From: Botryllus schlosseri
Lineage: Eukaryota
NCBI GenBank assembly: GCA_051294905.1
Contig: CM119372.1
Span: 34,164,001-34,228,000 of the forward strand
DNA: 64,000 nucleotides
Reading direction: 5' to 3'
The notes below the pieces were generated by a model. That model searched no databases. It was given only the letters and a program-made list of their open reading frames with translations, and was not told where the DNA came from. The position numbers were made by a program, and so were the translations under genes. Numbering within the stretch: the stretch's first letter is position 1; each line of letters starts with the position of its first letter. Below, one piece after another: positions 12,497-63,075 of this stretch.

Positions 12497-12499
12497 GCG

Positions 12500-13590: not shown

Positions 13591-14097
13591 CAGTGATGAG
13601 CGGATAGTAATTTCTGAGAATCCGAATCCGTCTGACAGCTCGCGTATCTGAGGAACTATCAGTCCGAATCCGAACAATCTCATCCAAAAATCCATTCGAA
13701 TCCGAACAATGTCGTCCAGAATACGAAAAGTCCGAATCGAATAACTTTTCCGAAGAATCCTGATTGCACGACTGAGCCGAGATACGATTAGGGCGTAGTC
13801 TTCACAAAGGCTAAGGTTAGGGTTTGCTGATTTGTATGTGCTTGGACCATTTACAGAACAACTTTAGAGTACTACCAGTCTTATCAGAACGTGTTTACTG
13901 TCCGTGTTTGGTTGTTCAGTTCAAATGACAAATCACGTCTGGTAAGAACTATTCGAAAATATCCGAAGCAGAAGTTACAACTATCCACAAATATCCGAAA
14001 CAAAATATGCAATAGAATGCGAATCCCATCAGACTGTCTCAAAATTGTGCGAAATCAGGCCGGAACCCTATCCGAGTCCGTCCGATGCTCATCACTG
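13591..14097. mobile_element. hAT-type MITE with (ATCCGA)n repeats
   Basis: TIRs CAGTGATGAGC / GCTCATCACTG; perfect TSD ATCCACAC. Confidence 0.9.
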
Positions 14098-14234
14098 ATC
14101 CACACATGCTTGAAATGCCAAGAGTGAACACTCATATTATGTCGTATCGATACGACGATTATACTTATTGCCAGATCTACATAGTTTATCTGACATGTAC
14201 AAAGCAATACTACAAACGTGAAATATGTTATAGG

Positions 14235-15521
14235 CAGAGGTGGTCAAAGTAGTCAAGAAAGCTACTCAAGTAGAAGTAGAAGTAGCGACGAAAAAATCTA
14301 CTCAAGTACGAGTAGAAGTACTTCTTCCATAAGCCACCTAAAACTACTTGAAGGAAAGCTAGAATTGACTGACGTTAAATTTACTCAAGTAAGTAAGTGG
14401 TTTTGAAAACAGTCTCAATTCGTTCGCACGGACTGTCAAATGCTGCAAATTGAGCTATGCGGAAGATGCAGATAGATTGATTCGTATTGATGCATCCCAG
14501 GAGGTATCAATTTGCGACAGAAGAAGCATTCTTTAGCATCATGGGATGCAAATGATAGTAATGATATGAAAATGCGATATTAACCTTGTTTACTAAGAGA
14601 CACCATTTTAGAGAATATCATGGCATGGCGCCCTACATCATGTTATAAGGCCCCAAGTTTAGGCGAAGAGCAATACGTAGAAGTTGCATCGGATACGGTT
14701 TCAACATTTTGCGAGATTGGTATACAAATATTGTATGCAAATTAGTATACAAATATTGTGGATCGTAAAATTTATATTTAGTGTAGCTTTATTTTCGGAA
14801 AATAGAGGCATTACTACACTTGCTTTTATGCTTCAACATGTATATTCTGCAGACAAAAGAACTGAAAGTAATTAGAACTCAAAGTATGATACTCTGAGTA
14901 TCATACTCGGAACTGCAATTGAAATACAAATACTTCAAACACTTCTAAAAAGCGGAAAATATATTTCATGTCTTTTGTTCATAAAGCTTCAAAGGTAGGT
15001 AATCTGCTAAAAAAGGCGTAGCGTTCCAAACAGCCAGAATTTCCAGATTAACAGGACACGTCATGGGCTGCTAGATAACGATAGGTAATTGCTAAATTGC
15101 GAAACGGTGGTTTCAAACGCCATATTTACTGTGATGAAATATTTGATATGGGTGACGATGCAGTATGAGCGGAACCATAAGCAATCTGGTACCTAAATTA
15201 TATTCATATATTTGGCATTCCATATACTGTGCGCGAAGCGCAATAATATTTCTGGGCTTTACTTTACTTTTTTAATATTAAATGGTGGCCCTCCGTGAAA
15301 CCAGCCCCGAAATTCCTCAGGCTATCTTTCGTATTGGGGGGTTAAACTACTTCTACTTGACAAACTGAAAATAGCGAAAAGTAAGTAAGTAGATCACAAA
15401 ATATTACGAAGTAGTAATAGAAGTAGAGAAAATCATATCTACTTGAGTAAGTAGCAGAAGTAGAGGAAAACTACTTCAGTACTTCCAAAAAGTAGAAGTG
15501 CATCGTTACTGACCACCTCTG
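14235..15521 (+). mobile_element. Non-autonomous hAT element (AGTAG/TACTC-rich ends), family B
   Basis: TIRs CAGAGGTGGTCA / TGACCACCTCTG; TSD GTTATAGG/ATTATAGG (7/8); inverted homologue at 59903-61150. Confidence 0.88.
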
Positions 15522-16986
15522 ATTATAGGCTACATGATGAAGAAAAGGATTAATTCAATTGTCCGAATTTTTCGCTGCTGATGGTGAAGATTAATTTTAC
15601 GGAATGACAGTTTTAAAGTTGCAACCCTCTTACGGGCCGTGGTAATCTTTATTATTTATCTTGAGCTAATATGTTCACACCACACGTTAAGACTATCCAT
15701 GAGTTTTCGAACGGTGAGCATCGGGCGGGCCACTAGTAATTACTTACTTAGTTAAAGCATGCTGTTTTGTCGCGACTTCCGGAAAATGTTGTCGCCACTC
15801 AAAAGTTATCTCACGCGTACCACAACTCAATAAAAAATTGGTAAGATACGCACGGTTCCCAATTTGCATTTATTCACAGCGCGCAAAATTTATTCCTCTG
15901 CTTCTTAGCATTTGTGCCGTGGGACTCAGATTGCAATTAATGAGCCATCCCGCGCGATCTTAGGACAAGGTTCTAACGCCGGCGATATTTCTGGGATCGC
16001 ACTTCGTGTTGGCTAAGACATACCTGCCTTGGTGTGTCTTTTTAGCGCCGTAAAGCTGATACCTAATAGTCCCGCAACCGCTGGCAGCACACGCATATAA
16101 TTAGATTCAATTCTGAATATCGTGCGTTTCTTTATTCAGGCCTATTTTTTGATTTTTTGATTTATCAAGAGGCGGGCACGCTATAATTAACATACCACTG
16201 AAACCATATATCGCGCAAAGCGCGATGAAAAATTTCAAGTCGGATACATATGGTCAATAATAATAAACCTATATTAAGTTTTGAAAAATGTTCAAAAATT
16301 ATTGGGAGCACGGCCCCATTCTCCCAGTCCTGGCGACGCCAGTGCTATTGTATATATACATAGGCCTATGTATTAATACCGCTAACAGACTGTTTTGCGA
16401 TATTAAAGAAAGCTCGGTGGATTTACATGCGTGCTCAATACTTGCAGGAGATTGTAAGACACTAGTACATGTAGTGTTTTGAGGCAGAGACTGTATAATA
16501 TCAACTGCAAATACATATAATTACACATTATTGAAATGATAATAACGCAACCCCTTCATAAGAAAACAAAAATCACAATTCGAGCTCATAACATTATGTC
16601 GCTTCGGTACGTCGATTATACTTCCTTCTAGATATACATAGCTAATCGGAGATAATCAGATAAGCATAAAACAGGAATACTAGCGACATACAATAATATA
16701 CTAAATATGATCCAGAGACGGGTCAATACAATCATCGAGATTTTTGGTTTCTGATGGGAAAAAATGTTAGCGAATGACTTGTTGAACGTGACAACTCCCT
16801 ATGTATGGGATCTGGTAGTCTATAAGGACGATTATACACTGCTTACGCCTCTATACCGACAACAGCTCACCATCGCTTCTGAAATCAATAATGGTGACAA
16901 TATCAGAACTTATTGCCAATGAGTTTACATCCCTGTCGGTATACATGCCAAGGCGATCACACGAAGACGAAGACGGTCATTAAATC

Positions 16987-17205
16987 TGTTTGTTTGTTTG
17001 AGGTATTCATTGTGTTTGTCGACTACTTTGTACATTTACACCACGCCAATTTTCTTCATTTTTATTCCGTAGCTGCCGACTTGTAGCACTGCCCACTTCC
17101 AGGCTTTTCATAAGACACCGCTTACGCGGATAAGATGGCGAGGATGAGCCTGGATAAACCTCCAACACTTAGGTAATTAAATCTCTATTCGCAGTCGACT
17201 AGTCA
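16987..17205 (-). mobile_element. 5'-truncated copy of the tRNA-SINE family at 58880
   Basis: Reverse complement matches the body and (CAAA)n tail of 58935-59136 (GTCGACAAACAC, GCGGTGTCTTA, CCTAAGTG). Confidence 0.75.
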
Positions 17206-17926
17206 CGAAACATCTTAGGGTTCACGATTATAATAATTATTAATTGTAATCACTGGTTTGCCTGGAAAATAAGGATCACTTCGTGGAATAATTTTGAATT
17301 TCCTGAAGAGTTCAACCCAAGCATTGCTCACCGAGGACTGACCGGTATAGCTGCGGTACCGGCGGATAGAATATAATACTAATCTGTGTGCTGCGTAGGC
17401 CGGCGGAACGCGCATCCCCCAAACTGAAAAGAGAGTGGCCTCTCACTGTCTTCGAGCTTCAGATCCATATTTTAGTCAGTCTGACGTGGAATGCATAGTG
17501 CGGACGCTATACAAAATGGTAAATGGTAAGCGAGTAACAAATTGTGCGAATCCCTGGTTTAGTTAAATGCCTTGAATGAGCTTGAACTCGCCCGGCAGCT
17601 ACTTTCCACCATAACGTTGTAGCAAACTACAATGAATTGGCGAAGTATAAATGAAAATTAATTTCAAGGTCAGTGGCCATATCGATGTTCATTACTCACC
17701 CTCAAGCGGAATGCTTCGGATCCGTGTTCAGACAGCACAATCGAAAACAGAATTCCCATTTGATCAGGAATCCTAACTGGATTGGATCCGGATCTTCAAT
17801 AACACGACCCTTGCTTGTGTAATTATAATTGAGTCACCGCGGTACGCCCGCGAAGCAATTTCAGGTTATGCTCGACTAATTCATAATTATTCACTTCGTT
17901 GCACGCATCTAGCCGTTGAAATATCG

Positions 17927-18075
17927 AGAGAGAGAGAGAGAGAGAATCTTTATTCGTATACATTACATATCAACATAACACTACAAAAAATGTAACAGTG
18001 AAATGCGACATGCAAGGTAGACGGGAGGCTCGATATGACATAGTCTTCAGAGCCGAGCCACCCGGGACAGGAGCA
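17927..18075 (-). mobile_element. Probable LINE/SINE 3' end with (TC)n tail
   Basis: On - strand, AATAAAGA followed by (TC)n: the same tail architecture as the LINE end at ~45990. Confidence 0.45.
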
Positions 18076-18584
18076 ATTTTCACAGTCGATAACTAATGAA
18101 AATCGATGTTTATGTGAGTAACGTAAACTAGCGATAGTCTACACTACATACGCATTTGGGCTTTGGGCTTTCCCAAGACGATATAGCTCTTCAAAATAAC
18201 TTGGCGTATTCGTAGCCATTACTGCGACGAGCTGATGTGGATCAGGTGGGAATGAACTGGTATTAAGTATATTTGACTTGTGGTCATCAACGTTTCGGGA
18301 TGCGTGCTAAGGTAGGCCTACCCAATAAAATGGTTCTACCCGTCAGTCACTCGAGAAGGTTATCGAATATTTGCACCGAAGGTCTTTGTCCACTAAGCGT
18401 CAGTAAATAGTTTTTCGTTTTATGGCGGTAATTTTAATATGAAACTGTCGCTCTTTTCCGAAATGTAGCCTACATGGTTATCCCAAATCGAGAAAATCAA
18501 TGCTTATTGACTGCACAACAAAACGGTATGTGAAACTTGACCTCAAGCTGTCGACAGGGCTGTTGAAATGAAGGCAATTGTTGA

Positions 18585-19933
18585 CTATTGGCGGGTGCTG
18601 TAATGCGCCCAAAAAGTGAAGCCACTTGACACCACTGTTAACCCGGATAGCATGTGCAGCTGGATCGATACGCATGCAAGATCTGTCAAGATATAAACGA
18701 TCATTGTACCACAGGCCAAACCAAAAGTTTGCACGACGTAAGCTGAATTGTGATCAATAAAATAGGTACCGGAAATCATATAGGCCTACACAGTCACTCT
18801 ACGTAAAGCGTGCGTCGCACCCATCAGGATAGCCAGAACGGTCCGTGGACATATTGTGCGACCTAATTGACGGTTGCCAAATGGCAGCCACTGAATATCC
18901 AGATGCTTCCACCACCAAACTCAGTATCAGTAGAAATGGCATCGGTGTGTAATTTCCGAGTGCGGTTACCGATGAACAGACAAGGAATGAAGTATATACG
19001 TGACGAACAAAACCTTATCTAAATGATCAACACCGAGCACACACGAGCCATAAGCGCGTGACATGTCCGACCAAATGAAACCAGCAATGAAGCCTTGCTG
19101 CAATAGGGCTGGAATGGTCAGCAAACCTGGCTTTGAAACCGCGTGACGAATCAAACGTTAAAATTAATTTTTACAATCTACCATCAATTCCGTGAGATAC
19201 CCCAAATTTCTATTTTCGCTTGACACGGCATACCATTGAACCAATATATACCCAGTACTTGAACTCCGCAACATAAGCACAGGTACATACGTATAGAAAT
19301 TAACGTCGGTACCAATTGTCTACTAGAATCAGTCGCAAACGCGTAATCAGACGGGCAATCGTTTGCTGCGCGTTTTGTCAAGTCACGAGTCGAGTCTGAG
19401 AAATTGGTGAAGTCATCAGTGATTTCCCTTTTTAAGAACAAGTCAGGCACAAGGCTGAAGATAGCTTGACCCAGCCCCAGAATGGCGACGAATATTCCGA
19501 CAGCCGCTTCAGTACCGACTTGTTTGTCACTTGGCTGCGTCGACTGCGATATTGATGAGATTATGACTCCGAGTGCGGGCATTATTAGGCCCCCGCCGAC
19601 ACCCAGCAGCATGCCTGCGGGCGTTACAGTCCAAAATCGAGGGTAGCCTATAGCAACGCTAGAGTAAATAACAACGAAGGAACTTGGCCTAAATGTAAGC
19701 ACGCTTTCTTCCCCAAAATACTAATAATTGGTACGTAAATCAGCAGTGTCACAATGCAGAGAGCTTCGTAAACCACTACACTAATCGATCCCAGTTCCCA
19801 GTGCGCCCTTCACTCCAATGCTTCACTGTAAGGCAGTAAGATTGTACTGCAGGCCAGCAACCATTGCAAAGCCAATTGAAACTTCATAAATGCGTAGTTT
19901 AGCGGACATTGCTCTTCGCCCCAAATCCACCAT
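18585..19933 (-). pseudogene. UNC93A-like: UNC-93-like MFS membrane protein pseudogene (intronless, frameshifted)
   Basis: Colinear UNC93 motifs: LTALQ-SI, YPRFWTVTPAGMLLGVGGG, AANDCP, GFIAGFIWSDMSRAYGSCVLGV, C-terminal TMs (ISGTYF...FGLACGTMIVYILTDLACV); internal stops and frameshifts. Confidence 0.8.
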
Positions 19934-20739
19934 TGTAAATCATATAAGCTGTTGTGTGCATATTAGATATGCAACACTCCGTTAAAATTCAATTGTGTGA
20001 TCGATTATGAGCTGGTCTGATCGTATCAAACAATCTCGATTGTCGTCATCCAATCGTGACTATGCAAGTGTATAGGTAGGGCTGTTGAAAACAAAAACAA
20101 ATTCTTCCAAATCTTTCTTGCTACCTGATTAAATTGTCAGGTTGCCCAAAAAAAAAACGATGCACACCAAATTTGACTCAATTCCAACCAGCAGATGCCG
20201 AGTTCTTACAAATTGAAATTTTGGCCATTTTTTAAATAACAGTATTTACGGTGGCAAATTTCGTCACTCCAACATGACGAAAAATCGTGTTCAAGGCATG
20301 CCCGAAGGCGCAGGGATGCTTTTTCTACCCGTTTACATCTTGACAAGGGCCTATGGTAGAGTTTGGATTTTAACATCGTCAGTTAACGAAAAAAAAGATA
20401 TGAGACGGATTAGCTGGAAATAAGTCGACTTCATTGAAATAGCTACGTGCAAATGATGGTGATATAATTTGCAAATAAAATACCTTTCACATTAAAATTA
20501 ACGACCACGGAAACGAAATAAACTGACAAGCAGGTAAATACACGGTCAAATATATTTCTCAATTGATAGTTAATATCTATATTCTGTCTGTCCAATGTAG
20601 TACGTGTAGTACAACTGTACAATACAACTAATCTGAAACTATAAGTCGTGTGCGTTCTTTGCGAGCAGTGCCAATTATCACTGCAATGTATATCATCTGC
20701 AATTCATTTATTACGGAATTTTGTGATACGATTGTTGAT

Positions 20740-20850
20740 ATACAATGTTCTTTCCAATTCTCTACTAGTTGCTGACGATTACCCCTGACGAGTGTCAGCC
20801 GAAAATATTCGGGTTCATTTCAATATGAATATACTATTTAATTGCATGAC
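20740..20850 (+). repeat. Dispersed short repeat with hammerhead-like core (other copies on - strand at ~1815-1920 and ~38020-38125)
   Basis: ACCC-CTGACGA-GTGTCAGCC-GAAA-ATAT-TC-GGGT at 20781-20814; flanks match the two - strand copies. Confidence 0.6.
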
Positions 20851-23595
20851 GGAATTATAAACTATTTTAATACGCTACATGCCTCTACTTGCACATTACC
20901 ATAAAACGAACAATTAATTTTCCGCTTAATACAGACATACCCGTTTCTCCGTTTAAATCGGCCAAGAGTGTGCGGAACAAAACAAAGTGCGCTCAGCATC
21001 CACGGATAGCATGAAGGAGAAAAAACGTGGTGCGGACCAGTGGTGGCCCTGCGATTGGAGGGGCTCTTGGCGAGGCTTCCGGAGGGGGGGGGGGCTACAA
21101 GTATGTAATCGCAGCTTCTGGAGGCAGACCTCCATTTCGCATCTATTGTTACCAACTTAATATAAGTGCGCCATTGGGAAACGGGATTACGCGGTGTGCA
21201 TATGGCACTTTAACAAGACTTTGACACAGGCCAAAATGTTGAATTGCTCTATAGCTCATGAGCCTTCTTTTATCATACATGGTCAAATTATGAAAGATGT
21301 GAACCAATGTATGATTCTCACCGCTTTAGCGCCCCTATGGAGCGATGGCGGTCGTAATTGTTCCTCCATCAGGCTACCATTGTGTGCAGAAATATTGCCG
21401 TTGTTTTTCCTCTATGGCGACTCGGTACTGCGAATGCACGAGTTGTTGGTTATTGCAACACTACTATCGCCTGATTTCATGTCATTGCTAGCGAAATCCA
21501 GACCCTACTTCTTCATTATAGCTGTTTGAGAAGCCTTAGCGTGTGACTGTATTTTTGCTTTAATTCAACTGTTGCCGACGTTGTCTTCTGATGTCACTAT
21601 AGTAACAGTAACAATTTACACAGCAATGTATGGAGCTTGTATAGTCTTACACAGCAATGTATGGATCTTGTATATTCTGAGTTGTTGACGGGTCTACCAG
21701 AGTTCAGTTTTGCCGACGTAGACAGAATTGCTAGTGAATCAAGAGGTAACGAAAATAGTAAAGGCTATAAATTATCCGCTGAATCTTACATACGAGATTT
21801 TAGAGGCATGTTGTAATTTATACTAGCAGAGGTCCTTGGTAGATTTATTCAAGCACTCAAATTATAGGCTCCTAACTGGCTTTGAGAATTAGACTTCGTG
21901 ACTTTGCAAGTATCATCTGTGATCCTGATGAGTTTTGGGGTGGGCGAGGTGGGCGGACGTCCGCCCCCCCTGGTCGAAGGCCCCCCCAAGGATAATGACG
22001 AATAAACATGGAAATCCGTGTCAAGCAAGAATATGATTCCGTACATATGTGCCAATCGTCATCAAATCACTGCATTTGTTAGAATAGTCCCGTATCCCGA
22101 TAATCATCACGTCTCAGCATGCGGTAGAATTACTTAGTTTTGATGTAGTCTATCCTTGCAGACATGCAAAATAGACATGGCCGAATCCAGCACCTGGGCA
22201 AACCTTTGCGGTGACGAAAGATAGATAATAATACCCGCTGCGAAAGGGGGGTCCAGAAGTTACGGATAGATACTTATAGGGGGCCCCCGGTAAGTCTCGC
22301 CCAGCCCCCCCCCCCCGTTCGTAGGGTCGCCACTGAGTTTGAGCATGTCAGTATCAGCACAGTGTTGTTGGGGTCAATGCTTGATATTGCATATTGTCAA
22401 AACAAAAAATTGTGCTGGAAACTAAAATCAAATAACTTGTCAACAAATTGTTTAGTAATAAACAAATACGAAGCTTTACAATATGACTACAAATTGCTAC
22501 CATTGCAATGTTTCCAGTTGCACTGCCCCAGTCCCATGATTGTCAAGTGCACCATATACTGCTGCAGTATTTTATGTTCCAGGTGCAGATGTGCCTCATC
22601 GACCAGCCACAACGCCACGGACCATCGACAAGGATATTTCGAAATCTGATGAGAAAGCTAGAACTGTCATGGACACCTTGCTCATTTGCGGGATATGAAA
22701 GCGTCATGGAGACCCGGAGATCTGTCATTTAAACTGGGTTTAGACTTGTTCTCCACGGTGGACACATCCACCAAGCCGCTAGCTAACTCCCAGTTGTGTC
22801 CCGGATAGCTTTGTGCATATAACCGGCTAGCTCATAGCAAATAAATTGCCAATATATCTGATAATTTGTCAATATACAATACCCAACAGAACTATTGAAT
22901 GTTATTTGTTTGTTTATTGAGCAGATAAAAAATGAATGGGTTAGCGATATAAAGCAGACTTGACCTGTGTGTATGTAGCCACTATGGCCATGTGGTGCGA
23001 TACCAATCAAGCATTTACAAGTTACATAGTTCTTATAGTAATAAAAATGCTCACTCTGAAGAAACAAGCATGGTGGTATCTGCACTTGTTATTCACAGCA
23101 GTCAATTATTATCATGTTTGCTACCATAATTTCCTCATCTGAAGGATCAGGCATATGTTCTCTGATTTTCTCTCTATTCACCCAAATTGCGAATTTCCCA
23201 AGAGTAAAATATGAACAATTTGCGTAAGTTATCGATAATCTTCTAACAGATGCAGTGGGCAAGTTGAATCGAACACCAAGGTCTTTCACTCCAAAGCCTT
23301 GGTGAATCCGACAAAGAAATAAAAAGAGTTCGTCTTGCAATGGCAGAGTTTATGACTTTGCCTTGAAATTCTTCAATATACCACTTCTGAGATCATTTTT
23401 AACAGCTGATAAAATTGGAACAGTTGCAGCTGTTGATGAGACTATATCAAAAAACTTCAAAACAAATCCATAACTTGAAAATCCAGAGTAACACAGAAAC
23501 ATATGTCATCGGATGCTTTGAATCGTGCACAAAATCAGCTTCTCTAGCTCGTTACTTAAATCCCGAATTATTCCCTTTGCTTTAGGGTTCTATAC

Positions 23596-23997
23596 CAATA
23601 CCGAGAAAACCATTACCGAGAACGAACATTACCGAGAACGCTATTACCGAGAATGGACATTACAGAGAATGGACACCACAGAGAATGGACATTACCGAGA
23701 ATTGACACCACAGAGAATGGACATTACCGAGAATTGACACCACAGAGAATGGACAGAACCGAGAATTGACACCACAGAGAATGGACAGAACCAAGAATTG
23801 ACACCACAGAGAATGGACATTACCGAGAATATTGACAATACCGAGAATGGACATTACCGAGAATATTGACATTACAGAGAATGTACATTATCGAGAATGG
23901 ACACCACAGAGAATGGTCATTACCGAGATTATGGACAATACCGGGAATGGACATTACAGAGAATGGACACCACCGAGAATGGCCATTACCGAGAATG
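23596..23997 (+). repeat. Left TIR array, ~25 x 16-bp unit (TTACCGAGAATGGACA / CCACAGAGAATTGACA variants)
   Basis: Direct reading of tandem units; reverse complement of 34385-34926. Confidence 0.95.
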
Positions 23998-26900
23998 TAT
24001 ATTTCCGAATATGAAGAATGTCGTGAAAGCTGAACCAGAAAATACCTAATATCACGACGTTGGGATCAATGTTATTTATAGTTGTTACGCGCTGTTGTCC
24101 AAGGGACCGCGCAGTGAGTTGGGGAGTGCGCGCAGCCTCGTGAAAAATTAGAGAGTGATGCACATACGATTTGTGTTTGTGCAATGTGCAATGTGCATAT
24201 GCAAAACATGCGTGCATTATAGGCATTGTGCATATGAGACAGGACAGAAATGTGGTAATCTAACCCGTTTACTGTAAAATGTCTCGTACTACTTTCTGCC
24301 ACCGATAAGGTGATAAGCGTCGCATTGTTTCCTTCTGAACAATTAACAATTAATAATAACAATATGCTGCTGGAAGGGGAAGGTGCAGAATAGCCTTATA
24401 AGGCTTTCTAAGTCGAGCAAAGTAAACATTATTGAGAGGACATTACTAGTAGCCTAAAGCCAACCGTTTGCTGAAAATGACTAAGCTGCATCAACCGAAA
24501 ATGTAGGCCATGATCTGCCTAGATACTTGTTTATCCCCTTTTCGAGATTTGAAAGAATTGATGCCTTCTTGCTTCATACCAATCACAGCAGCTCGATGAG
24601 TTCCGCTAGTATTACAGATATCCGTTCCTTTGAAGAAAACTATTGTGTCATAGTTTGCCTTTTCGCTATCAAGCAGATAAAACGAATTGAGATACGAATC
24701 ACAGCAGGTTGATGGGTTATTAGAGGTATCCATGCCAGTGAAGCGATGGAATTCCTTATCGAACCATAGTTTCTTTAGTGGCTCTTAATCATATTATGCT
24801 CTTTTAAGATTAGAATCACAGCAGGTTGTTACAGATTTGTGCGCCAGTGAAGCGAAATTATTCAATGTTATGCCGTAGTTGCGGTATCATCATCACACTA
24901 ATGTGGAGTGTTCGAGACAATCAGCTGTTTTAAAACCAACCGTATCGGTCAATCACATGCTTTACGACTAAAAGTCATGACAGGTGTTGGTCAGCTAAGG
25001 AAGGTGGACGACGAATGGCAGAACAATCAGGACCTAATGTATTAGCAAAATACATTACTTCGACCCGAGGAAATAAGTTAATCGCTGTTGGCGAGTTCGT
25101 ATTTAGGAGAATGAAAGTTTCGAATGGTACTTCGTACTGGATATGCACGCATTATGACAGAAAAAAATGTCGGTGTTCATTGAAAGTCCTTGAAGGATCA
25201 GAGCCACCAATCGTTCTGAAGCAATCTCAAGAACACAATCACTGTGCTACGTTTGGCATAGTAGAGGCAAAAGAAATGGTTCAAAGGTATGATGTTATTT
25301 CAATATCGTTTTATGGGAAATGTATTCACGTCTAGCCAGACCAGTGGTTCTCAAACTGGGGTCCGCGAGACAATTTTTCGAGACCGCGAAACACGTTCCA
25401 ACAAATTCACTAATAATATTGAGTTTCCCGTTTGCTATTTCGGCTCGTTCGTGAATAGCGCAATACCGTTTGTGAACCGAATGCATAAAGAGTAGTGATC
25501 AATCGTTTTCGGGGGTTGCATTTGAATTTGAAATGGTTGAATGTTATTCACAAAACTAGACGCTGGAATTAAATATATGAAAAAGGAAAAATCCTGATAA
25601 ACGGTGGTAAAGTCAAATGATTCAATAAATATAGTTTGTTACCCACACATGGCAACAAACCTTCAAGTCTATTTTTGAATGCAGTCCTCGAATTGTGCTA
25701 TGATGACGTCAAGTTTCATTACGTTTGAAGCTGGTCTTTCGATATGTTTACTTGCGATGACGCTAACGTATGTTGCAAGTTTATTATAGTGCTTACCAAG
25801 AATGGCATTTTCTTTGGGATCAAATAACAGTCTCTATTTAGAATGAAAATCCAAGGTTCCGTAAGCAACGAAGCACCATCGAAAATATATGCCTCTGCAA
25901 TGGCATCCGCACAATTAAGTCCCTCAGGGGCAATTGCGATGGGGAGGAAAGAAGCCGTAAAACGAGCCATACGTCGTGTTAGATACAGAAATAATCAAGC
26001 GGTAAAGTATAGAAATAATATTAGCTATTTGTTAAAATGAAATATATTTCAATTACATTGCTTTCAGCCCTCTCTACCAAAGTAATTACAAGAACTGGAG
26101 ATTGGTACCTTGGAAACATCCGGAGGGGAAAATCTGGTTCTGTATGACAGTGGGCGATCAGCCAGTAACAGGAGATTTATCGTCTTTTCTAATGATACAT
26201 TACTAGAAAACATGACAAGGTAAGGACATATCTCGCTTTTTTATTAATTCGATACGTTGCACATGTCTGAGCAGCGTAGGCCAATGTATATATTTCTATA
26301 GTGGAGTGCCGTTATCGTTAATATTTAGGTTTGGTGATGTCTTTCTATGTAATGTACTGATATAGAAACAACCGTTAGCTAATCTAATGTATTGTCGCAC
26401 TGCTGTTAATTTCATACTAAGCATTTTTAAAAGGGTTGTTTTTCTTCTGCCTTATTCTCGATTATTCACCAGATACACAGAATGGCACGCCGACGGCACA
26501 TTTAAAACTGTGCCAAATCTCTTCCATCAGATGTACACCATCCATTTTACAAAAGATCATGAAACTGTCCCTGGAGTTTACGCTCTCTTGAACCATAAAG
26601 ACGTATCCATGTACAAAGAGTTACTGTAGGTAAATCATAGACGTCGTTTCGATGGGTTTACAAACATGTGTAGAGCGCTACACCTGCATGAGCAGTGAGT
26701 CTGCATATTCGACTATGCGTAACTAATTAGCCTATTCCTATATCAACAGGTGCTAAAACAAAGAGGCCAGACTTGAATCCGACAACACTTATGCACGACT
26801 TTGAATCCTCAGCGATTCGAGCATTCTCGGAAGTATTTCCGAACATTAAAATCACGGGCTGCCTATTTCGTTTGAGCCAAAATGTGCAGAGAAAGGTCCA

Positions 26901-27424
26901 GGAATTAGGTTTGAAAACTGAGTATCAATCTAATTCCGGTTTCTCCGCTCAGGTAAGCGTTCATTTTAGCTACGGCGTCAACGCTAAGTGTAAAACGGGA
27001 TGATTACTTTCAGGTGAAGTGCTTGACGGCCCTTGCTTTTGTGCCCGAGTGCGACGTCAAACATTGCTTCGAAATATTGACTTCTTCCAACTCAGGCTGG
27101 CCAAGTTTTGCCGAAGACTTGGCTAATTATTTCAGGGACACATATATAGGTAGGCTATATTAACAGATGCAATCTTTTTCACTGTTGCGGATTGGATTGG
27201 CCACATTGAAATTCTTGCTGATCTGGATTATTTTGTATTCCGTCATCAGGTTTGAATCAGTGTAAGATAGTATAGCATTTTTGGTGTGTTGAGATGTCTA
27301 AAACTATGGGGTAGAATCGAAGACTACTCTAACGATGTTCATATTGTTATTATTGTATCTTCACGACCTTGTTGTTCTATCTTAACCACCTAAATCTTTA
27401 TAATCACCACCCGTCAGACTAGAT

Positions 27425-45989: not shown

Positions 45990-47400
45990 GAGAGAGACAG
46001 AGAGTCTTTATTTTCAACCAACCAAAATACATAACACATGGCGGTGGTGGTGGTACAGAAAATATGCATGCACAGTATTCGGTATTAGATAGGAATGATC
46101 GATAAGACCGTGAAGTTCATCTAGTCTGAACAGGTACGCTTGACTCTAAACAGTCTGGCTGTAAAAAATGTTACGATAGTTAAAAAAAATAGAAGAAAAA
46201 TTAAACGATGGTAGGAAATGATCAATGAAGCAATGTCTGGGCGAGATAGGGCAACAGTGTTAGTGTAACGACAAGAGGTGATCAAGTATTAGGGCTTTTT
46301 TGAATCTATTATAAGGCGATTCACGGATATGTGGTAGTAATGCATTCCAGATGATAGGCCCCGAGTAGTCGATAGATCTCCTTGTAAGGTTGCTATTGGG
46401 TGGGGGTTAGTAGATATTTCCTTTAGACAAGGATCTCGGGTAATAGGAGTGGACATTTTTAGCAGGCATGAAAAAGTCATCAAACACAGGAGGCAAACTA
46501 TTGGAAAAATATTTGTGAATGACTTTTGATACTTCGAAGCGATCTAGTTCGTCAACTTGCAAAATTCGGTGCTTACGGTAGTAAGGCGATAGTTTGGTAC
46601 GTGAAGGTACAGATGAGATCAGCCGTATCGCACGGTTTTGCAGGGTTCGAGTTCTGCACAAAAATGTTGTGCATGCATTCCCCCATACTACGATTCCATA
46701 TTGCAGGTGAGAGTGGAAAAGAGAGAAATGATGGTTGGTAGTATCGATCTGGAAACAAAAGATTGCAGACGGGTCATTATTCCCACACACCGAGCTAGTT
46801 GTGATATTGTGCATTCAATATGCTGCTTCCAAGACATTTTGGCATCAATGGTGACGCCGAGACATTTTGCAGAGTCACATATGGAGATTTGTTTATGATT
46901 GATGTTCACAGTGAAACTATTATGATTGGCATTATTTGAAAGGAGCATCTCGTTCTTATCTGCATTCAAACTTAGTTTGTTTGCTTGCAGTCATCTCGAC
47001 ACTTTCGGGAGTTCCCTATTCACGGATGCATGCAAATCATCGACAGTGTTGGAGGTTATGAAGAGGTGAGTATCATCAGCAAATAGGGTTGTGCGGAATA
47101 AAGATGCATTAACAATGTCGTTAATATAAACGAGGAAAAAAGTCGGTCCAAGGACTGAGCCTTGTGGCACTCCACAAGTTATATCTCTGGTAGTCGTTCT
47201 TAATGTCCCCAGTTTAACGAATTGTTTGCGGTTTGCCAGGTAACTTCCAAGTAGAGTTGCTGCAATACCCCTGATTCCATAGTGTTCTAGCTTGTATCTT
47301 AAGATTCTGTGGTTAACTGTATCGAAAGCTTTGCGGAGGTCTATAAAAATGCTGCAGCCACTTTTATTTTGCTTGATGGTTTTGTAATAGTAGCACCAGC
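45990..47400 (-). mobile_element. 5'-truncated CR1/L2-group LINE (RT + C-terminus + 3' UTR)
   Basis: IFIDLRKAFDTVNH, GVPQGSVLGP, LFADDT, KCLGVTID, LQYGIVVWG, LQNRAIR over three frames; AATAAA plus (TC)n tail at ~45990-46012. Confidence 0.93.
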
Positions 47401-48479
47401 TACTATCCATCATGCGAATGATGTGTTCCTTTCCATCACCCCTACCAGTAAGCTTGGAATAATGCGCAAACATATAGTGATCTTCAAACAGGATGGGCCA
47501 CTTATAGTCCTGATTGCGGATACGCCCATTGATTATATTGATCGCTGCCACTTTACCACTGTTTCCAGTCTGATAATTCGTAACCTCAATCTTCCTCGCT
47601 AATCACTCGGGATATCGAACAAAAGGACTATCGCCGGCTTCCCGCCTGGATAGCCCCTGTTAATATTAAATATAAAAATGACGATAAGCCTTAAAATCGA
47701 TGCACCACAATACATTCTTTTGTCAAGCCTACTTGGTATTGGAACGGCTGGTCTACTGAAATTATCTCAACATGAACCAATTGATTGTTGCGATATTGAA
47801 GTCTATTAAATGCCCTTTTTCAATATACTGATTGTCAGCAGTCTCTGACACGCCGTGCTAAAATCGTACTGGCCAAATCGTAGTACTCTACGCTTTTGTG
47901 TAACCCTACTGTTTATGGAATTACAATTTTATCAAATTCTTTCTTCATCGGCCACAAGAAATGCCCAACAATACGTGTGACAAATAAAGTAATTTACGGA
48001 TAGATTCGGGGAATCGAGTTACGATCTCATGTCCGTAATTAAATACGCCGTTGATAACAGTACCTTACGGTTACGTGTGTAAATTCGTTTACTGCTCGAA
48101 AAGGTGTCTATTTACGGATTTTTCTAACAGTGAAGCTCCAATCTACTCTGGTATCTCACCGCATCATATTCATATATTGGGGGATGCCTTCTCCTTGCCC
48201 ATCGCTGACTATGCCAAGGTTTTCCGGGAAATTATTTAGATATTTTAGCTTTTAGAATGTGCGCTGTCCGACATAAACATACGGCAGTGGCACATGTGTA
48301 TCAGGGTTACATGTGCATTCTTATTGTCTGACCACTAAGAAGCACACTATTTCAAAGGCGATACATTTGATCCAATCCCAATCGTGCCTGTGATACTGCA
48401 ATGATTCAATGCTTCTGTCTTATTCTCAATGTTTCTGTATTATTCACGAAGACTAACTGAGTGTGCAATTCTTACTGCA

Positions 48480-53136: not shown

Positions 53137-54261
53137 CAAGGGTGTCTAACATACAGCCGGTCAGACGAGTTCACCGGTCCGCAAAGCCATTCTGAGTAGA
53201 TTGAAAAATCCTTTGATTATACAGCACATTTCTAACAAATGTTTTAGTAAAAAATACTTCCATCAAATAATCACTCATGGCAGCAAATGTTAAGCATGTT
53301 CATTGTTCATAGACCACATTATAACCATCCGACAGTGGTCTTGTGGTTTAACTCTATGCACCCTTAGAAACAAGTCTACGACATTGATACCCAATTCCGA
53401 GAACACAAAAATTGCACACTCAATTCATAGTTTTATGGACAAATTACCGAGAAATAGTGCGAAAACGTCAGTGCAAAAACCGTTATGTGCAGTGTATGAA
53501 GAATATAATGTAGTCGCACAAAAGTAATAATCAAATATCCGTGATCGCAGTGCTGAATAACTTCTGATTCAAAAGATCCAGGCTTTCAGAGAAACCCGTA
53601 TCGCGATTGCATGATAGCCAACGTCCGCGTCTGCGGTTAATATTTCGTGGATTCCTCACAACGCATACGCAACGGTAACGGCAGATTACGACTAAAACTA
53701 GGGTTACCATACGCCCTCTTTTAAGCGGATTTCTCCTTTTTTTGACATTTTTGAAAGTGTCATCTTTTCGGAGAATTTGTCGTCTTTGTCAACGATCTTG
53801 GTTAAATGTTTGTCAAAATTCAACTGATATACATATAATCAGTGCTCAAATAACGGTACGGCGGGTCTTCCGAGAGTTGAGCCTGAAAGTTGAAAATTTT
53901 TTAGAAAGTGTTCTCTATTCAGATTCCAAAAATATGGTAACCCTACTAAAACAAAGTGAGGATTTCGTGACGTGCCTATACCTATATCGCCATTTCAGCC
54001 ACTGTTGTAGTGGTATTTAACTGTATTCAACCGGTAAATCATCGTATTTTCCCAATTTCGTCGTTTAAGAATAACGGTGTAGCTAGAATCGAACCCGTAT
54101 ATGCTCCATATTATAATAAAATGTTTGATAATAATCATTCAGGTGGAAATTGCGGGCATGGACTTCGAGGTAACATTATGGAACCATTTGGGTGGTGTGG
54201 CCAGCGAGCGACAGGAAAGTTTGTATCCCACCGGCGACGCAAATTGAGTTTGACACCCCTG
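53137..54261 (+). mobile_element. Family A hAT element with nested TAGGG MITE (53699-53945)
   Basis: TIRs CAAGGGTGTC / GACACCCCTG; TSD CTCTACCC/CTTTACTC (6/8); nested MITE flanked by CTAAAAC. Confidence 0.85.
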
Positions 54262-55266: not shown

Positions 55267-55659
55267 TAGGGTTACCATATTTTGGAAATTTGAAACGAGG
55301 ACACTTTTTCAAAATTCTACAACTTGCAAAACCGGAGGAAAATCCTGAAAAATGGTAAATTTTCCCCACGTCGTGGACGGTTGACAAAAAAGGTCAACTT
55401 TTTCGCTCAAATCCCGAAAAATTGAGTTTTTCTTTCACATCATCAGGTCGTTGGCTAACAAAAGGTCAACCTTCCGGCTCAGCTCCCAAAATATAGCCGC
55501 CGAAGCGTTACAGTCGAATTTTGCCCTATATTTAACCAAAATTCTCAAAAAAGAGGACAAAATCTCAAAAAGAGGACATTTGGGCGACCTCCGAAGACAC
55601 TTTCAAAAAAGTCAAAAGAGAGGTCAAATCCCCCTAAAAGAGGACGTATGGTAACCCTA
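55267..55659 (+). mobile_element. TAGGGTTACC MITE
   Basis: TIRs TAGGGTTACCATA / TATGGTAACCCTA. Confidence 0.85.
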
Positions 55660-58070: not shown

Positions 58071-58879
58071 TTCGAGGTTTGATATAGCTGTAAGACCGGA
58101 GTAAAATCCGTAAAAATTGCTAAAAGTTTGTTGTTGGTTGACTAAAAAAAGGTTATCTTTCTGGCTCGGCCCCAGAAATAGACACTTTCATTGAATAAGA
58201 ATATAAAAACACTTTTTGACTCAGCCCCCGAAATACACGCCGGACCGTTACTTCATTACTGATTTCCTATATCTCAGTTTAATTTTAACATAGATTTACC
58301 GAGATTTTCAAAAAAGAGGACAGATTCTCAAAAAATAGTGCAAAAGTGTCAAAAAAGAGAACAAATCTCTTCAAAGAGGACGTTAGGGATATTCAGAATT
58401 GACCGACTTTTAAAAGTCACGATTTCAGTCCGTTCCCATGCCCTATGCCCTAAAAACATATTCCAGCTACTTTTTATCTGTAACTCATCCCTTGCATCTG
58501 TGTGCATATTGAGCTGGAAGAATATCGGCTGAAAATGGGAGATTCCCCTAAAATTTGAGTGCCACGATTTTATTAGGCCTACTAAAATGCCATATATGTC
58601 AGGGTTTTAGGGGCTGTTGTGGTTTGGGGAGATGCAAAACTTCACTGTAGATATTTTCCCGAGTTCAGGACACACTTTTCGTATTGCACACTGTCTTTGA
58701 AATCCTCAAACCTACCTAAAACTGAGCAAAATTTGGCACGATTCTCCATGTAAAATGATACAACTGTAAATGCACCATCCAATCGCCCAGCGACATCGTA
58801 AATATCTTATTATTTAATGAAACGTAAGAACATAACGAGGAAATGGATAACGAAGCGAAACAACACAACAAATAAATGT

Positions 58880-59136
58880 GGCGCAGTTGTATAATCCGCG
58901 GCTGCAACACCGATGGGTGCGGATTCGAGTCCGACCGAGGTCGACTTCCGAATTCTGATACCTAAGTGGTTGAGGTTTACCTAGGCTCCTCATACGCGTC
59001 AGCGGTGTCTTACAAAAGCCTAGAGGTGGGCCGTGGTATAAGTCGGCAGTTACGGAAAATAAGAAGAATATCGGCCTGGTGTTAATGACCATAGTTGTCG
59101 ACAAACACCATGAATACCCCAAAACAAACAAACAAA
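58880..59136 (+). mobile_element. tRNA-derived SINE
   Basis: A-box-like TGGCGCAGTTG, B-box-like GATTCGAGTCC, (CAAA)n tail, 14-bp TSD CAACAAATAAATGT (58866-58879, 59137-59150); missing from the mirror arm. Confidence 0.85.
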
Positions 59137-59902
59137 CAACAAATAAATGTATTAATTTGAAAAACTTCTCCAATACCAATAAGATTGATGGGTTGATTTT
59201 TCGAAATTTTAAAATCTTTGCCGGAGATCTTCCAAGACTTGTAAGAGACGGGCTTGCTGTTTTCTGTCGTCAGATATGTTCACTGTACATCGCGTGGTCT
59301 GTATTTAATTTTATCATACATTCTGCTGGATCTTTAAGTACTTGACTGTTATTACCGAATTCCCGAGCACTCATGAAATGCGGATACCTATGCCATTCGG
59401 AAACTGGAATACTTGTCCAATGATGCTTTACCACCATACCATCAATGTGAACGAAGAAGACGTCTCAAGCAAATCAACGATCAAAACCTGGCATAGATTT
59501 GGCTTACAGTGGCTTTCAGAGTAGTAAATTTAGATGGATGATCAGATAAATATCGTGCATCTCCAAAATCAGCTGCTTGTGCAGATATAAAAGAGTTCTC
59601 TGTATGTTTAGTTGGCCACTTGCTGCTCGGAGCACCTCTAGCAGTTCAGTCTTAATCTTTTTTCCCGATTTTAACTAACAATTCGTCATCATTGGCATCA
59701 ATCGCTCCTAATATGTGAGCCCGATCATGGTGAAATGCTATGCCTTAAAATTTCCTTATCATCTGCAAAAGGTCTGTTGGCTTCAACTGTCCCAGACCAA
59801 GGATATGTGGCAACATCACAATGTGACTTCGAAGCTGCACTGCGTAAGATATGAGATATATGAAAGGAAACCATAAAGCTATTTCGAAAATTGATGCAAA
59901 AT

Positions 59903-61150
59903 CAGAGGTGGTCAGTAACGAAGTACCTCTACTTTGTCGAAGTACTCAAGTAGTTTTACACTACTTGTGGTACTTACTCAAATTAATCTAATTTCCGCTA
60001 CTTCTACTGCTACTTCGTAATATTTTGTGATCTGCTTACTTACTTTACGCTGTTTTCAGTTTGTCAAGTAGAAGTAGTACCATCCTCCGATTTGAACGAG
60101 AGACTGAGGAATTTCGGGGTTGTTTTCATTGAGTACTGACATTTGATTTTCATAAAAGTTATCTAAAGCCCAGAATTTTCATCGCGCTTCGTGCAAAGAA
60201 GATATGGAGTGACAAGTATATGTTTTCAGGACAGTGTTCGTGAATAGGCTATAACTTAGGTAGCGGTAGCGTGGCTCCCTTTACTCACGCCGCATTGTCG
60301 TCCATATGAAATAGTTCATCATAGTAAATATGCCCCATCATAATGTTTGAAATTAGTAGTTTCACAATCAAGCCTTTGCCTATCATATCGTAATCGAGCA
60401 GTCCAGCATATGGCGTGTCCTAATCTGGAAAAGTGGACCCTGACTTTTTGATCATGAAACCTGTTTTAGCAAACCACTGTTGAAGCGATCTGGACAAGAG
60501 ACATGTAATACATTTTTCGCTGTTCAGAAATGGTGCTTGTATTTCTTATTTAGTTTGCAGTATCATTAATTTCAGTTCCTTTGTCTGGATCTGGAGAAGT
60601 TACATGTTGAAGTTTAAAAGCAAGCCTTTATTTTCCAAAAATAAAGTTACACTATGGTATGGCCTTTTTACGATCCGTTATATTTTCTATTGAAGTATAC
60701 TAATCTCGCACCGATACAGCTTTTCGGTATTGCTCTTAGACTAAACTATAAGCCTCATAATATGGGTGAGGGCGCCGCACCGTGACGTTTCCTAAAACGG
60801 TGTGTTCGGGTAAACAAAGATTAGTGTCCATAGCGATATCCTTTGCACCCCATGATGCGGACGAATGCTTATGCTCTTGAATATTGATATCTTATGTGAT
60901 GCAGCAATATTAACCAAGCTCTCTGCACCTTCCGTATAGCTGAATTTGCAGCTCCATGCGAACGTATTATGACCGTTTTCCGAACTACTTACTTACTTGA
61001 GTAGATTTTAAGCCAGGAAATTCTACTTCTAATTTAAATAGTTTTAGGTTGCTTCTAAAAAGAGTACTTCTACTCGTACTTGAGTAGATTTTTGCGTCGC
61101 TACTTCTACTTCTACTTGAGTAGCCTTCTTGATTACTTTGACCACCTCTG
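59903..61150 (-). mobile_element. Family B hAT element at the centre of the palindrome
   Basis: TIRs CAGAGGTGGTCA / TGACCACCTCTG; perfect TSD TGCAAAAT. Confidence 0.92.
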
Positions 61151-62479
61151 TGCAAAATCCTCATTTGGGACGATCAAAGAACGATAAGACATAACCTTCG
61201 ACCATTATTAGGGAGATCCCAGATCAGAAACGATTCGCGGCAAAGATGAATTGTTGAAAGTTAAAATCAGACAACTAGAAAAAGACTGAACATACCTAGA
61301 AGACGGCCTGCAGCAGCATGAAGTAGCGGATGTGAACTTATAGCCAGAGCACATCTATCTTATTCACAGGCAGCTGACACCCCTCCTAGCAGGGATTTTG
61401 AATTCGCACCAAATGCACATTATTCATATAATCATTCATCAGCATTTGTGACTCTGAAAGCTCTTGTGAACCTATTCAATGACAGATATTTTTCTTATGT
61501 TTGTAATTGTGTATTTGATTGGGACTGAATTGTGGTAATATTGATGATATAGCTGTGTAGAACACCATCATGTCGAGTCTTCCAGTGCCAGAACGGCATG
61601 GTGATCCGCGTTGCATGAGTGCTCAGGAATTCGTGAATCGTGGTCAAGAACTTAACGGTACAGCAGCTCGTATGATGAAATTTAATACCGACCACGCTAT
61701 GTTCATACCTGACGACAGAAAACACAAGCCAGTCTCTTACAAGCCGTGGAAGATCTCCGACAAAGATTTCAAAAATTCGAAATATTGACCTATTCATGGA
61801 CCTGATTGGTCTTGGAATTTTGTCAAATTAATCCATTTCTTTGATATGTAGTGTCGTTTCGTTATCCGTTTTCCGTTATGATATTACGTGTCATTGAATA
61901 ATAATCTATTTACAATGACGCTGTGCAATTGTATGTTGCATTTACAGTTATATTCTTTTACAAGATGAATCGTGCAAAATGATCATAAGTTTTGGGTAAG
62001 TTTGAGGATTTCCAAGGCAGTGTGCAATATGAAAATGGTTCTCCTGAACTGACAAATATATACAGTGAGATTTTGCATCACCTCAAACCACAACAGTTGC
62101 CTAAACCCTGACATATATGGCATTTTAGTATAGGCTAAGTAAAATCGCGACACTCAAATTTCAGGGGAATTCCATATTTTAAGCCGATATTCTTCCAGCT
62201 CACCATGGACACAGATGCAAGGGTGAGTAACAGAAAAAAGTAGCTTGATTATATTTTTAAGGCATAAGGCATGCGAAACGGACTGAAAACCATGACTTTT
62301 TAAAAGTCGGTCAATTCTGAACAACCCTAGAGGACGTATGGTAACCCTGTGTAAGACGTCAATCCAACATATCTCGCTCACAGGTTTTCATAACAAAATA
62401 GGAATAAAAGAGTCAGTGGTAAGTGATGACTGATCGACTTTTACGTTGACCTAGTTTTCATTTGCTTTACCCTACACAC

Positions 62480-63075
62480 TTATTGGGTTGGGAACGCTTC
62501 AGACGCAACGTATATAAAGGTAGAACCACCTAAACAGCATTTCGCAATAACTAAATGACTTGGCGAAGTGAATGTAATGTGCGCAATAACCATGCAGCTG
62601 CAAACGACCAGATACGTAGGGTTACCATATTTTGGAATCGGGAAAGGAGGACACTTTTTCAAAATTTTCAAACCCAGAATTCCGGAGAAAAATCTTAAGA
62701 AAATGGTAAATTTTTCTCACTTCGTGGTCGGTTGCCTAAAAAAAGGGCATTTGACAGTAAATTCGACCAAAAGACTCAAAAAGAGGCGAAATCTCAAAAA
62801 GGAGAACATTTGGGCGTCCTCGGAAGACATTTTCAAAAACCGGAAAAAGGTGGGAAAATCCTCCCAAAGGAGGACCTATGGTAACCCGTAAGATACGGAA
62901 AATAAAAAAGGTTTTCAATAACGACTGTGAAGGTACCGTATTGCCGATAATTGTGCTACCAAACCCTACCTTGTACTTGGTTCATCTTCCGTATATTGTA
63001 ACAAATGATGATCGAGCATACAACGATTCCCACAGTCGGTATATGTACAAGAACGGGTGCCGTATACTTCATGTG
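62480..63075 (-). pseudogene. GPCR-like remnant (TM5-TM7) split by TAGGG MITE 62617-62890
   Basis: PVLVHIPTVGIVVCSIIICYNIRK (TM5), RQYGTFTVVIENLFYFPYL|VVCSCMVIA (TM6, frame continuous after removing the MITE and one AGATACG), FIYVASEA..NPI (TM7-like). Confidence 0.55.

What the first reader, a model, noticed from the sequence alone, without database searches (positions are those of the whole stretch)
58384..62329. Palindromic hAT transposon built from two right ends, each carrying transposase C-terminus
Seen: after removing the SINE and central MITE, the unit is ~2.4 kb of two ~1.1-kb inverted arms with a spacer of only ~150 bp, flanked by a perfect 8-bp TSD. Both arms read outward as DPAECMIKLNTDH..ISDDRKQQARLLQVLEDLRQRF and AARMMKFNTDH..PDD..ASLLQAVEDLRQRF. 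Known: this resembles the C-terminus of TAGGG-ended hAT (hATm/hATx-like) transposases. Inference: the arms are clearly diverged while the TSD is perfect, so a double-right-end element seems to have moved as an already old unit. It could also produce hairpin RNA against its parent family.
Basis: partly seen in the sequence, partly recalled or inferred. Interest (0 to 1): 0.7.

Follow-up and report, generated by a model that had tools for sequence, protein, structure and literature searches.

The report
Old hAT transposon with two tails
This is a real but dead jumping element made of two mirror-image tail pieces of an already gutted transposon gene; it occurs in several copies and likely spread by borrowing its parent's enzyme, a rearrangement already described in other transposon groups, and nothing seen here shows that it silences its family.

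Summary
Confirmed. Without a SINE and a central MITE, 58384-62329 is a 2,419-bp foldback: arms of 1,102 and 1,154 bp, a 163-bp centre and a true 8-bp target duplication. Both arms encode the C-terminus of a TAGGG-ended, hATm-like transposase (E 1e-12 and 3e-6).

New here: (1) Both arms also carry an N-terminal piece (aa ~154-249) joined to aa ~680-770, so the catalytic core was deleted before the mirror copy arose (weaker). (2) The MITE-free centre junction recurs in 7 contigs of another sample, so this is a family. (3) Arm identity falls from 84.6% outside to 70.7% inside, while other copies are ~84% alike in both zones: the inner arms had likely diverged before the family spread. The perfect TSD alone does not show that (P about 0.26).

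Two RNA runs gave almost no reads over the centre; silencing is unsupported. Precedents: Rpmar49/Rpmar17, Galileo 2RT, Goblin. The scan already noted seven similar foldbacks elsewhere in this genome.

The parts
58376..58383 (.). Left copy of the 8-bp target site duplication
58384..62329 (.). Whole foldback element, 3,946 bp; 2,419 bp without its two insertions
58384..59262 (-). Outer left arm (3' trailer, terminus and end of the coding piece), interrupted by the SINE; 84.6% identical to the right arm
58865..59149 (+). SINE insertion 58879-59135 with 14-bp TSD (58865-58878, 59136-59149); tRNA-like A and B boxes read by eye from recalled consensus; absent from the right arm
   Evidence: sister copy 16987-17175 at 78%
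59191..59443 (-). Left arm: transposase C-terminus, aa 688-769 of P0008, one 7-nt insertion
   Evidence: tblastn E 1e-12; profile score 110 vs shuffled max 27
59480..59500 (-). Approximate internal-deletion junction in the left arm (aa ~249 joined to aa ~680); position inferred from the right arm
   Evidence: arms align colinearly across it
59496..59756 (-). Left arm: degraded N-terminal transposase piece starting at aa ~154; its far end is placed by alignment to the right arm
59757..59902 (.). Larger part of the unpaired centre (rest at 61159-61175); its inner ~65 nt may continue the left arm's N-terminal reading (weak)
   Evidence: present in other copies
59895..61158 (.). MITE insertion 59903-61150, CAGAGGTGGTCA ends, 8-bp TSD TGCAAAAT (59895-59902, 61151-61158); absent from other copies seen
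   Evidence: sister copy 14235-15524 at 70%
61176..61483 (+). Right arm: degraded N-terminal transposase piece, aa ~154-249
61576..61790 (+). Right arm: transposase C-terminus, aa 698-769 of P0008, one 1-nt frameshift
   Evidence: tblastn E 3e-6; profile score 64 vs shuffled max 25
61720..62329 (+). Outer right arm (end of the coding piece, 3' trailer, terminus)
62330..62337 (.). Right copy of the 8-bp target site duplication
58089..58383 (+). Host: body of a small TAGGGTTACCA-ended element, left end not found
62338..62349 (+). Host: last 12 bp of its right end, displaced by the insertion
   Evidence: (D15)

Best explanation
This is one old copy of a multi-copy, non-coding foldback element whose two arms both carry the same two broken pieces of a TAGGG-ended, hATm-like transposase gene, and which likely spread by cut-and-paste using an intact relative's enzyme. 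Inferred order of events: (1) a ~3-kb autonomous element lost the middle of its gene (aa ~249-680, including two of the presumed catalytic motifs); (2) its 5' part was replaced by an inverted copy of its 3' part, likely by template switching during gap repair or by deletion between two head-to-head copies; (3) the inner arms drifted an estimated 15-20% apart while the outer ~600 bp stayed, or were made, alike; (4) the family spread; (5) this copy landed in a smaller TAGGG-ended element and acquired a SINE and a MITE. Shown: the anatomy, the TSD, the C-terminal homology, the recurring centre junction and the identity gradient. Reasonably supported: the N-terminal pieces and so the shared deletion. 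Inferred: the mechanism of steps 2 and 3, and mobilisation in trans.
For: True TSD with an uninterrupted sister site. C-terminal homology in both arms to P0008, E 1e-12 and 3e-6. Relatives of that protein lie in TAGGG...CCCTA elements of 2.4-3.2 kb in 10 of 17 loci checked, 3 of the 10 with a perfect 8-bp TSD. N-terminal block: each arm alone scores best at the same profile column (164); jointly 24.1 bits, with 0 of 1,000 shuffles reaching it (max 7.3); letters carried by most other copies raise the column score at 13 of 18 sites (4 lower, 1 equal) and remove both stops in the left block. In run X5 (another sample and study) 7 contigs leave the stretch at 59901, and their 30-letter consensus matches 61158-61186 at 25 of 29 (compared by eye). 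Arm-to-arm identity 84.6% outer vs 70.7% inner (Fisher p 9e-7); copy-to-copy 84.0% (14 pieces) vs 83.8% (8 pieces). Arm differences show no third-position excess: 5 synonymous vs 41 non-synonymous codons.
Against: No second full-length copy with its own TSD was seen: no genome is held and the contigs are short, so 'family' rests on the centre junction and on depth. One or two of the 7 contigs could be alleles of this locus. The N-terminal match is weak by other methods: not above shuffles (22-24 vs 26-27), i-E 0.07 and 0.2, tblastn E 0.006 and 0.03; the block and its single gap were chosen. Copy-to-copy identities are cut off at 80% by the tool. No Pfam PF05699 hit in six full-length relatives, although PMC6004678 reports that domain for hATm-6. 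In Hermes, a right-end/right-end donor showed no activity.
Confidence: 0.8

Rival explanations
1. The arms were never one sequence: two already diverged copies of the same gutted lineage were joined head-to-head, and only their outer ends were shared. This changes step 2-3 of the best explanation, not the rest.
For: Inner arms are estimated 19-25% apart after allowing for this copy's private changes. PMC4678618 proposes deletion between two neighbouring copies for Rpmar49. An earlier scan note reports two different hATm elements moving together in this genome (e1-7786480, not checked).
Against: Outer ~600 bp, including the end of the coding piece, are as alike as any two copies, so homogenisation is needed in this model too. 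No synonymous excess, so two functional genes are not the donors.
Confidence: 0.1
2. It is a mobile Mu-killer-like locus: read-through transcription makes a long hairpin whose small RNAs silence the parent family.
For: The geometry resembles Mu killer, a partial inverted duplication of a transposase gene (abstract of PMC3440606). Five perfect duplex runs of 15-28 bp remain.
Against: In 59160-59915, RNA run X11 laid 6 of 12.9 million records read and X15 51 of 10.0 million; none was 99% alike, 55 of the 57 fit only in part, and 59446-59705 and 59758-59915 had none. Four of the five perfect runs lie in the non-coding trailer and only a 16-bp run in the coding piece. These are two partly read long-RNA runs of other individuals, not small-RNA data.
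Confidence: 0.05
3. The autonomous parent normally has ~1.1-kb terminal repeats that overlap its gene, and this is a simple internal deletion of it.
For: hATm elements can have long repeats: 417 and 575 bp in PMC6004678. In L005 and L021 the repeat begins 50-54 bp after the stop codon.
Against: Each arm joins an N-terminal to a C-terminal piece, which an intact gene's repeat cannot do. 0 of 80 related loci show a minus-strand transposase hit; flanking repeats were found in 26 of 80, 18-178 bp long (some cut by contig ends) apart from one distant 518-bp pair. These loci come from other organisms.
Confidence: 0.03
4. The mirror copy arose in place after an ordinary element had inserted here, and the unit never moved as such.
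For: No distinct TSD pair was seen for another copy.
Against: The same centre junction, without the MITE, is in 7 contigs of X5; listed pieces over the centre are 82-84% like this copy, too distant for alleles of one recent event.
Confidence: 0.02

Closest known systems
Rpmar49 and Rpmar17, rearranged mariner lineages of Rhodnius prolixus (PMC4678618; passages read)
   Same: 5' part replaced by an inverted 3' part, transposase homology in the duplicated part, later amplification by transposition; Rpmar17 copies vary in breakpoints near the centre, as some contigs here do.
   Different: Mariner, not hAT; Rpmar49 repeats are 221 bp, not ~1.1 kb; no shared earlier core deletion or arm-identity gradient in the passages read.
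Galileo two-extended-TIR (2RT) copies of Drosophila mojavensis (PMC3573991; passages read)
   Same: Long repeats extended by recruiting sequence next to one end, up to 1,107-1,260 bp; non-autonomous.
   Different: P superfamily; the recruited regions are non-coding spacers, and the longest-repeat copies lack transposase sequence.
Goblin MITE of Aedes aegypti (PMC3814204; passages read)
   Same: Right subterminal sequence copied in reverse next to the left end; template switching proposed.
   Different: 213 bp, Tc1/mariner, 54-bp repeats, young (98.4% intrafamily identity).
hATm family (PMC6004678; passages read)
   Same: TAGGG termini, 8-bp TSD, long terminal repeats; related transposases sit in TAGGGTG-ended elements.
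   Different: Termini here are TAGGGAT and TAGGGTT, not TAGGGTG; no coding capacity; PF05699 not detected in the relatives.
Mu killer of maize (PMC3440606; abstract and outline only)
   Same: [quoted passage not shown]
   Different: Mu killer duplicates TIRA and part of mudrA, is one locus with read-through transcripts and demonstrably silences; this is a multi-copy 3'-end unit with no transcript seen.

Membership tests
hATm (as defined in PMC6004678) | 8- or 9-bp target site duplication | tested here: met
   8-bp perfect duplication; single octamer in an uninterrupted sister host
hATm (as defined in PMC6004678) | Termini 5'-TAGGGTG ... CACCCTA-3' | tested here: inconclusive
   TAGGG core at both ends; heptamer matches 5 of 7 (left) and 6 of 7 (right). 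The copy is old, and intact relative L001 also departs (TAGGGGT).
hATm (as defined in PMC6004678) | Transposase related to those of TAGGG-ended, 8-bp-TSD elements | tested here: met
   Arm peptides lead to P0003-P0014; their relatives lie in such elements in 10 of 17 loci checked, 3 with perfect TSD
hATm (as defined in PMC6004678) | Placement in the hATm clade with named Repbase members | not testable with these tools
   All protein hits are unnamed or 'hypothetical'; no Repbase or Dfam library
hAT superfamily (as described in PMC6004678) | C-terminal dimerisation domain PF05699 | tested here: not met
   No PF05699 hit at E up to 1 in the two arm peptides, four short hits or six full-length relatives; hence filed as hATm-like, not as a firm member
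Double-3'-end non-autonomous lineages (Rpmar49/Rpmar17 type) | 5' part replaced by an inverted 3' part with transposase homology | tested here: met
Double-3'-end non-autonomous lineages (Rpmar49/Rpmar17 type) | Amplified after the rearrangement: independent insertions with their own TSDs | tested here: inconclusive
   Own TSD real and junction in 7 other contigs; TSDs of other copies not visible
Mu-killer-type silencing locus | Hairpin transcript across the inverted duplication | tested here: inconclusive
   No reads over most of the centre in two partly read RNA runs of other individuals
Mu-killer-type silencing locus | Small RNAs and heritable silencing of the parent | not testable with these tools
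   No small-RNA library was listed as such

The most novel reading that the evidence does not exclude
A long-lived, self-spreading hairpin family that carries mirrored transposase fragments around the genome and, where a copy lands in a transcribed region, makes small RNAs that hold its own hATm-like parent in check: a mobile, multi-copy Mu killer in an animal.
Probability: 0.05. Interest if true: 0.7.

Novelty: new member of a known kind. Interest (0 to 1): 0.3.

Why it matters
As it stands it is a clean example for repeat annotation and transposon life history: a three-step origin (core deletion, mirror duplication, spread) can be read from one copy, and the 85% to 70% identity gradient suggests that only the outer ~600 bp are kept alike. 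It also offers a natural contrast to Hermes, where two right ends do not transpose: hATm-like ends may be functionally symmetric, which a donor assay could test. I found no report of this arrangement in hATm in four searches of the open-licence library and none on hAT right-end pairs; subscription journals and Repbase Reports were not searchable, and six .doc supplements of PMC6004678 that list hATm elements could not be read. It would matter much more if it silenced its parent, for which there is no evidence.

Tried and rejected
No genome was held, so other copies could not be counted or their TSDs read. Word-indexed protein searches with the arm peptides found nothing; neither did the ESM Atlas, Pfam, phages or viral contigs; HMMER without a word index did. 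The terminal DNA pattern had 0 matches in metagenome contigs, and blastn of the element against the 80 loci returned nothing at E 1e-3 (script ended on the empty output). Rfam and ARAGORN found nothing in the window. No RNA holder was listed; that is no evidence either way. The joint across the MITE was not among the 15 joints shown of 1,187, hence the narrower second lay. Alignments A1 and A2 misplaced the tail peptides and were not used. The perfect-TSD argument for age was rejected. An averaged-BLOSUM frameshift alignment did not detect the N-terminal piece. A left-arm hit at 59577-59630 to aa 224-242 conflicts with the arm alignment and is treated as chance; a 14.8-bit hit of 59830-59883 to profile columns 586-603 (control max 12.0) is unresolved. 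Sequence look-ups among earlier findings returned nothing, so it is not shown that the other noted foldbacks belong to this family. Summed contig depth is not a copy number and is used only as a rough sign of repetition.

Full report
Observation. The element runs from TAGGG at 58384 to CCCTA at 62329 with GAGGACGT on both sides. It interrupts the right end of a small TAGGGTTACCA-ended element; a sister copy ending at 55659 has the octamer once in the same context, so this is a true target duplication. A 257-bp SINE (58879-59135, perfect 14-bp TSD) and a 1,248-bp MITE (59903-61150, perfect 8-bp TSD) are nested in it. Without them the unit is 2,419 bp: arms of 1,102 and 1,154 bp and a 163-bp centre. 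The arms match at 877 of 1,107 aligned columns.

What the arms encode. A two-row profile of the arm peptides found 5 proteins at E up to 0.001 among 1.84 billion. One of them, P0004, led to 7 longer proteins of 456-821 aa among 985 candidates. Against P0008 (777 aa) the left arm matches aa 688-769 (E 1e-12) and the right arm aa 698-769 (E 3e-6). These proteins are unnamed and have no Pfam family above cut-off; PF05699 was not hit. A metagenome scan gave 148 confirmed relatives, of which the best 80 were kept. Of 17 loci I checked for ends, 10 have TAGGG...CCCTA termini 2.4-3.2 kb apart and 3 of these a perfect 8-bp TSD; L001-L003 look like one element. That fits the hATm definition in PMC6004678 (passages). 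I file the element as hATm-like because no named member could be compared and PF05699 was not found.

A shared deletion. The inner part of each arm does not continue the C-terminal region upstream. It matches the N-terminal region from aa ~154. Each arm alone scores best at the same column of a profile of 8 close relatives; together they score 24.1 bits, and 0 of 1,000 shuffles reach that (max 7.3). Letters carried by most other copies raise the column score at 13 of 18 sites, lower it at 4, leave 1 equal, and remove both stops in the left block. The right arm continues to aa ~249 at 61483 (12.8 bits; control max 12.0). The arms align colinearly across the junction. So about 430 codons, including the HWDGK and FDTT motifs at aa 321 and 389 (their catalytic role is recalled, not tested), were lost before the two arms separated. 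Against this: the N-terminal match was not above shuffles, had i-E 0.07 and 0.2 and tblastn E 0.006 and 0.03, and the block tested was picked.

A family, not one accident. No genome was held, so I laid contigs of public runs. In X1, pieces identical to this copy have depth about 15, while summed depth over the arms and centre is 369 or more per bin against 53 in the first flank bin; this is only a rough sign of repetition. In X5, another sample and study, 7 contigs leave the stretch at 59901 (median 164 letters, agreement 0.83), and their consensus matches 61158-61186, the sequence after the MITE, at 25 of 29 (compared by eye). One X5 contig covers 59591-59901 with 51 differences and runs on for 173 letters. 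The head-to-head centre therefore exists without the MITE in several diverged copies. The 7-nt insertion at 59277 is missing in 2 X1 contigs, 4 X5 contigs and 4 X15 reads. I did not see a second full copy or its TSD.

Age structure. Arm-to-arm identity is 84.6% (504 of 596) over the outer ~600 bp and 70.7% (229 of 324) inside (Fisher p 9e-7). Pieces of other copies are 84.0% like this one outside (14 pieces) and 83.8% inside (8 pieces). These come from the few pieces the tool printed; I left out identical own-haplotype pieces, middle-zone pieces and two gapped inner pieces, and the tool drops anything under 80%. The simplest reading is that the outer arms were nearly identical and the inner arms about 15-20% apart when the family spread. 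Arm differences show no codon bias (first/second/third position 9/8/11 and 12/12/9; 5 synonymous vs 41 non-synonymous codons), so the arms diverged as dead sequence.

How it likely works. It encodes nothing and would be moved by an intact relative's transposase acting on the outer ends (inferred). The stop codon lies about 555 bp from each end, close to the 417-575-bp repeats reported for hATm-6, and in two close relatives the repeat starts 50-54 bp after the stop (L005, L021). The outer ~500 bp may therefore be the family's normal repeat, present at both ends anyway, which would explain why two 3' ends work here although a right-end/right-end Hermes donor is inactive (bioRxiv 10.1101/2022.09.16.508221, passages). 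The parent's left end in this species was not seen. A parent with gene-overlapping 1.1-kb repeats is unlikely: 0 of 80 loci show a mirrored transposase piece, and the arms hold a deletion junction.

Silencing. Over 59160-59915, X11 laid 6 of 12.9 million records read and X15 51 of 10.0 million. None was 99% alike, 55 of 57 fit only in part, and no read covered 59446-59705 or 59758-59915. Only five perfect duplex runs of 15 bp or more remain, four of them in the trailer. This is no support for a hairpin transcript, but small RNAs were not examined and the flanks were not tested for transcription.

Comparison. Replacement of a 5' part by an inverted 3' part with transposase homology, followed by spread, is described for mariner Rpmar49 and Rpmar17 (PMC4678618, passages). 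Galileo 2RT copies (PMC3573991, passages) and Goblin (PMC3814204, passages) are related cases; Mu killer (PMC3440606, abstract) is the silencing analogue. I found no hATm case. The scan's own notes list seven foldback hAT/hATm elements of 2.0-3.4 kb and one composite elsewhere in this genome, among 8 shown of 178 that fit; these are unchecked leads, and they pointed me to three of the papers.

Verdict. Real, correctly described, and a new member of a known kind. Interest 0.3.

Noticed in passing
window 59387 (run X15): 16 RNA reads leave the left arm at 59387 into one other sequence (agreement 0.95), exactly at an AG on the minus strand: possibly a splice acceptor used in a transcript from another copy, or another copy's DNA junction.
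   Followed up: no
window 59227-59821 and 59256-59340 (run X5): Single contigs change strand at these points, and 13 of the 15 listed joints skip 57-210 bp inside the arm or centre: other copies may fold back earlier or carry further deletions, as in Rpmar17.
   Followed up: no
window 59903-61150: The central MITE family is extremely abundant (summed depth about 400,000 at its ends vs 15 for single-copy pieces) and its other insertions favour a GTTATAAC-like target; the TSD here, TGCAAAAT, departs from it.
   Followed up: partly
window 58384-58669 and 62150-62329: Depth at the element's outer ~250 bp (10,000-27,000 in X1) is several times that further in, suggesting many shorter relatives that share only the ends; the edge bins also include the host element.
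   Followed up: no
window 49258, 53699-53945, 54388, 55267-55659, 62617-62888: At least five more copies of the small TAGGGTTACCA-ended host element within 14 kb; resemblance to Blackjack-type hAT ends is recalled, not tested.
   Followed up: partly
   Followed up: no
window 7306-10292: A 620-bp inverted pair at 93% identity (7306-7913 / 9670-10292), another long-repeat element.
   Followed up: no
window 46991-47602 (-): 203-aa open frame with reverse-transcriptase-like motifs of a LINE (read by eye).
   Followed up: no
L004:1-91 and 1772-1862: In this metagenome locus the inverted repeat abuts aa 272 of the transposase: a deleted or repeat-extended relative, cut by the contig end.
   Followed up: no
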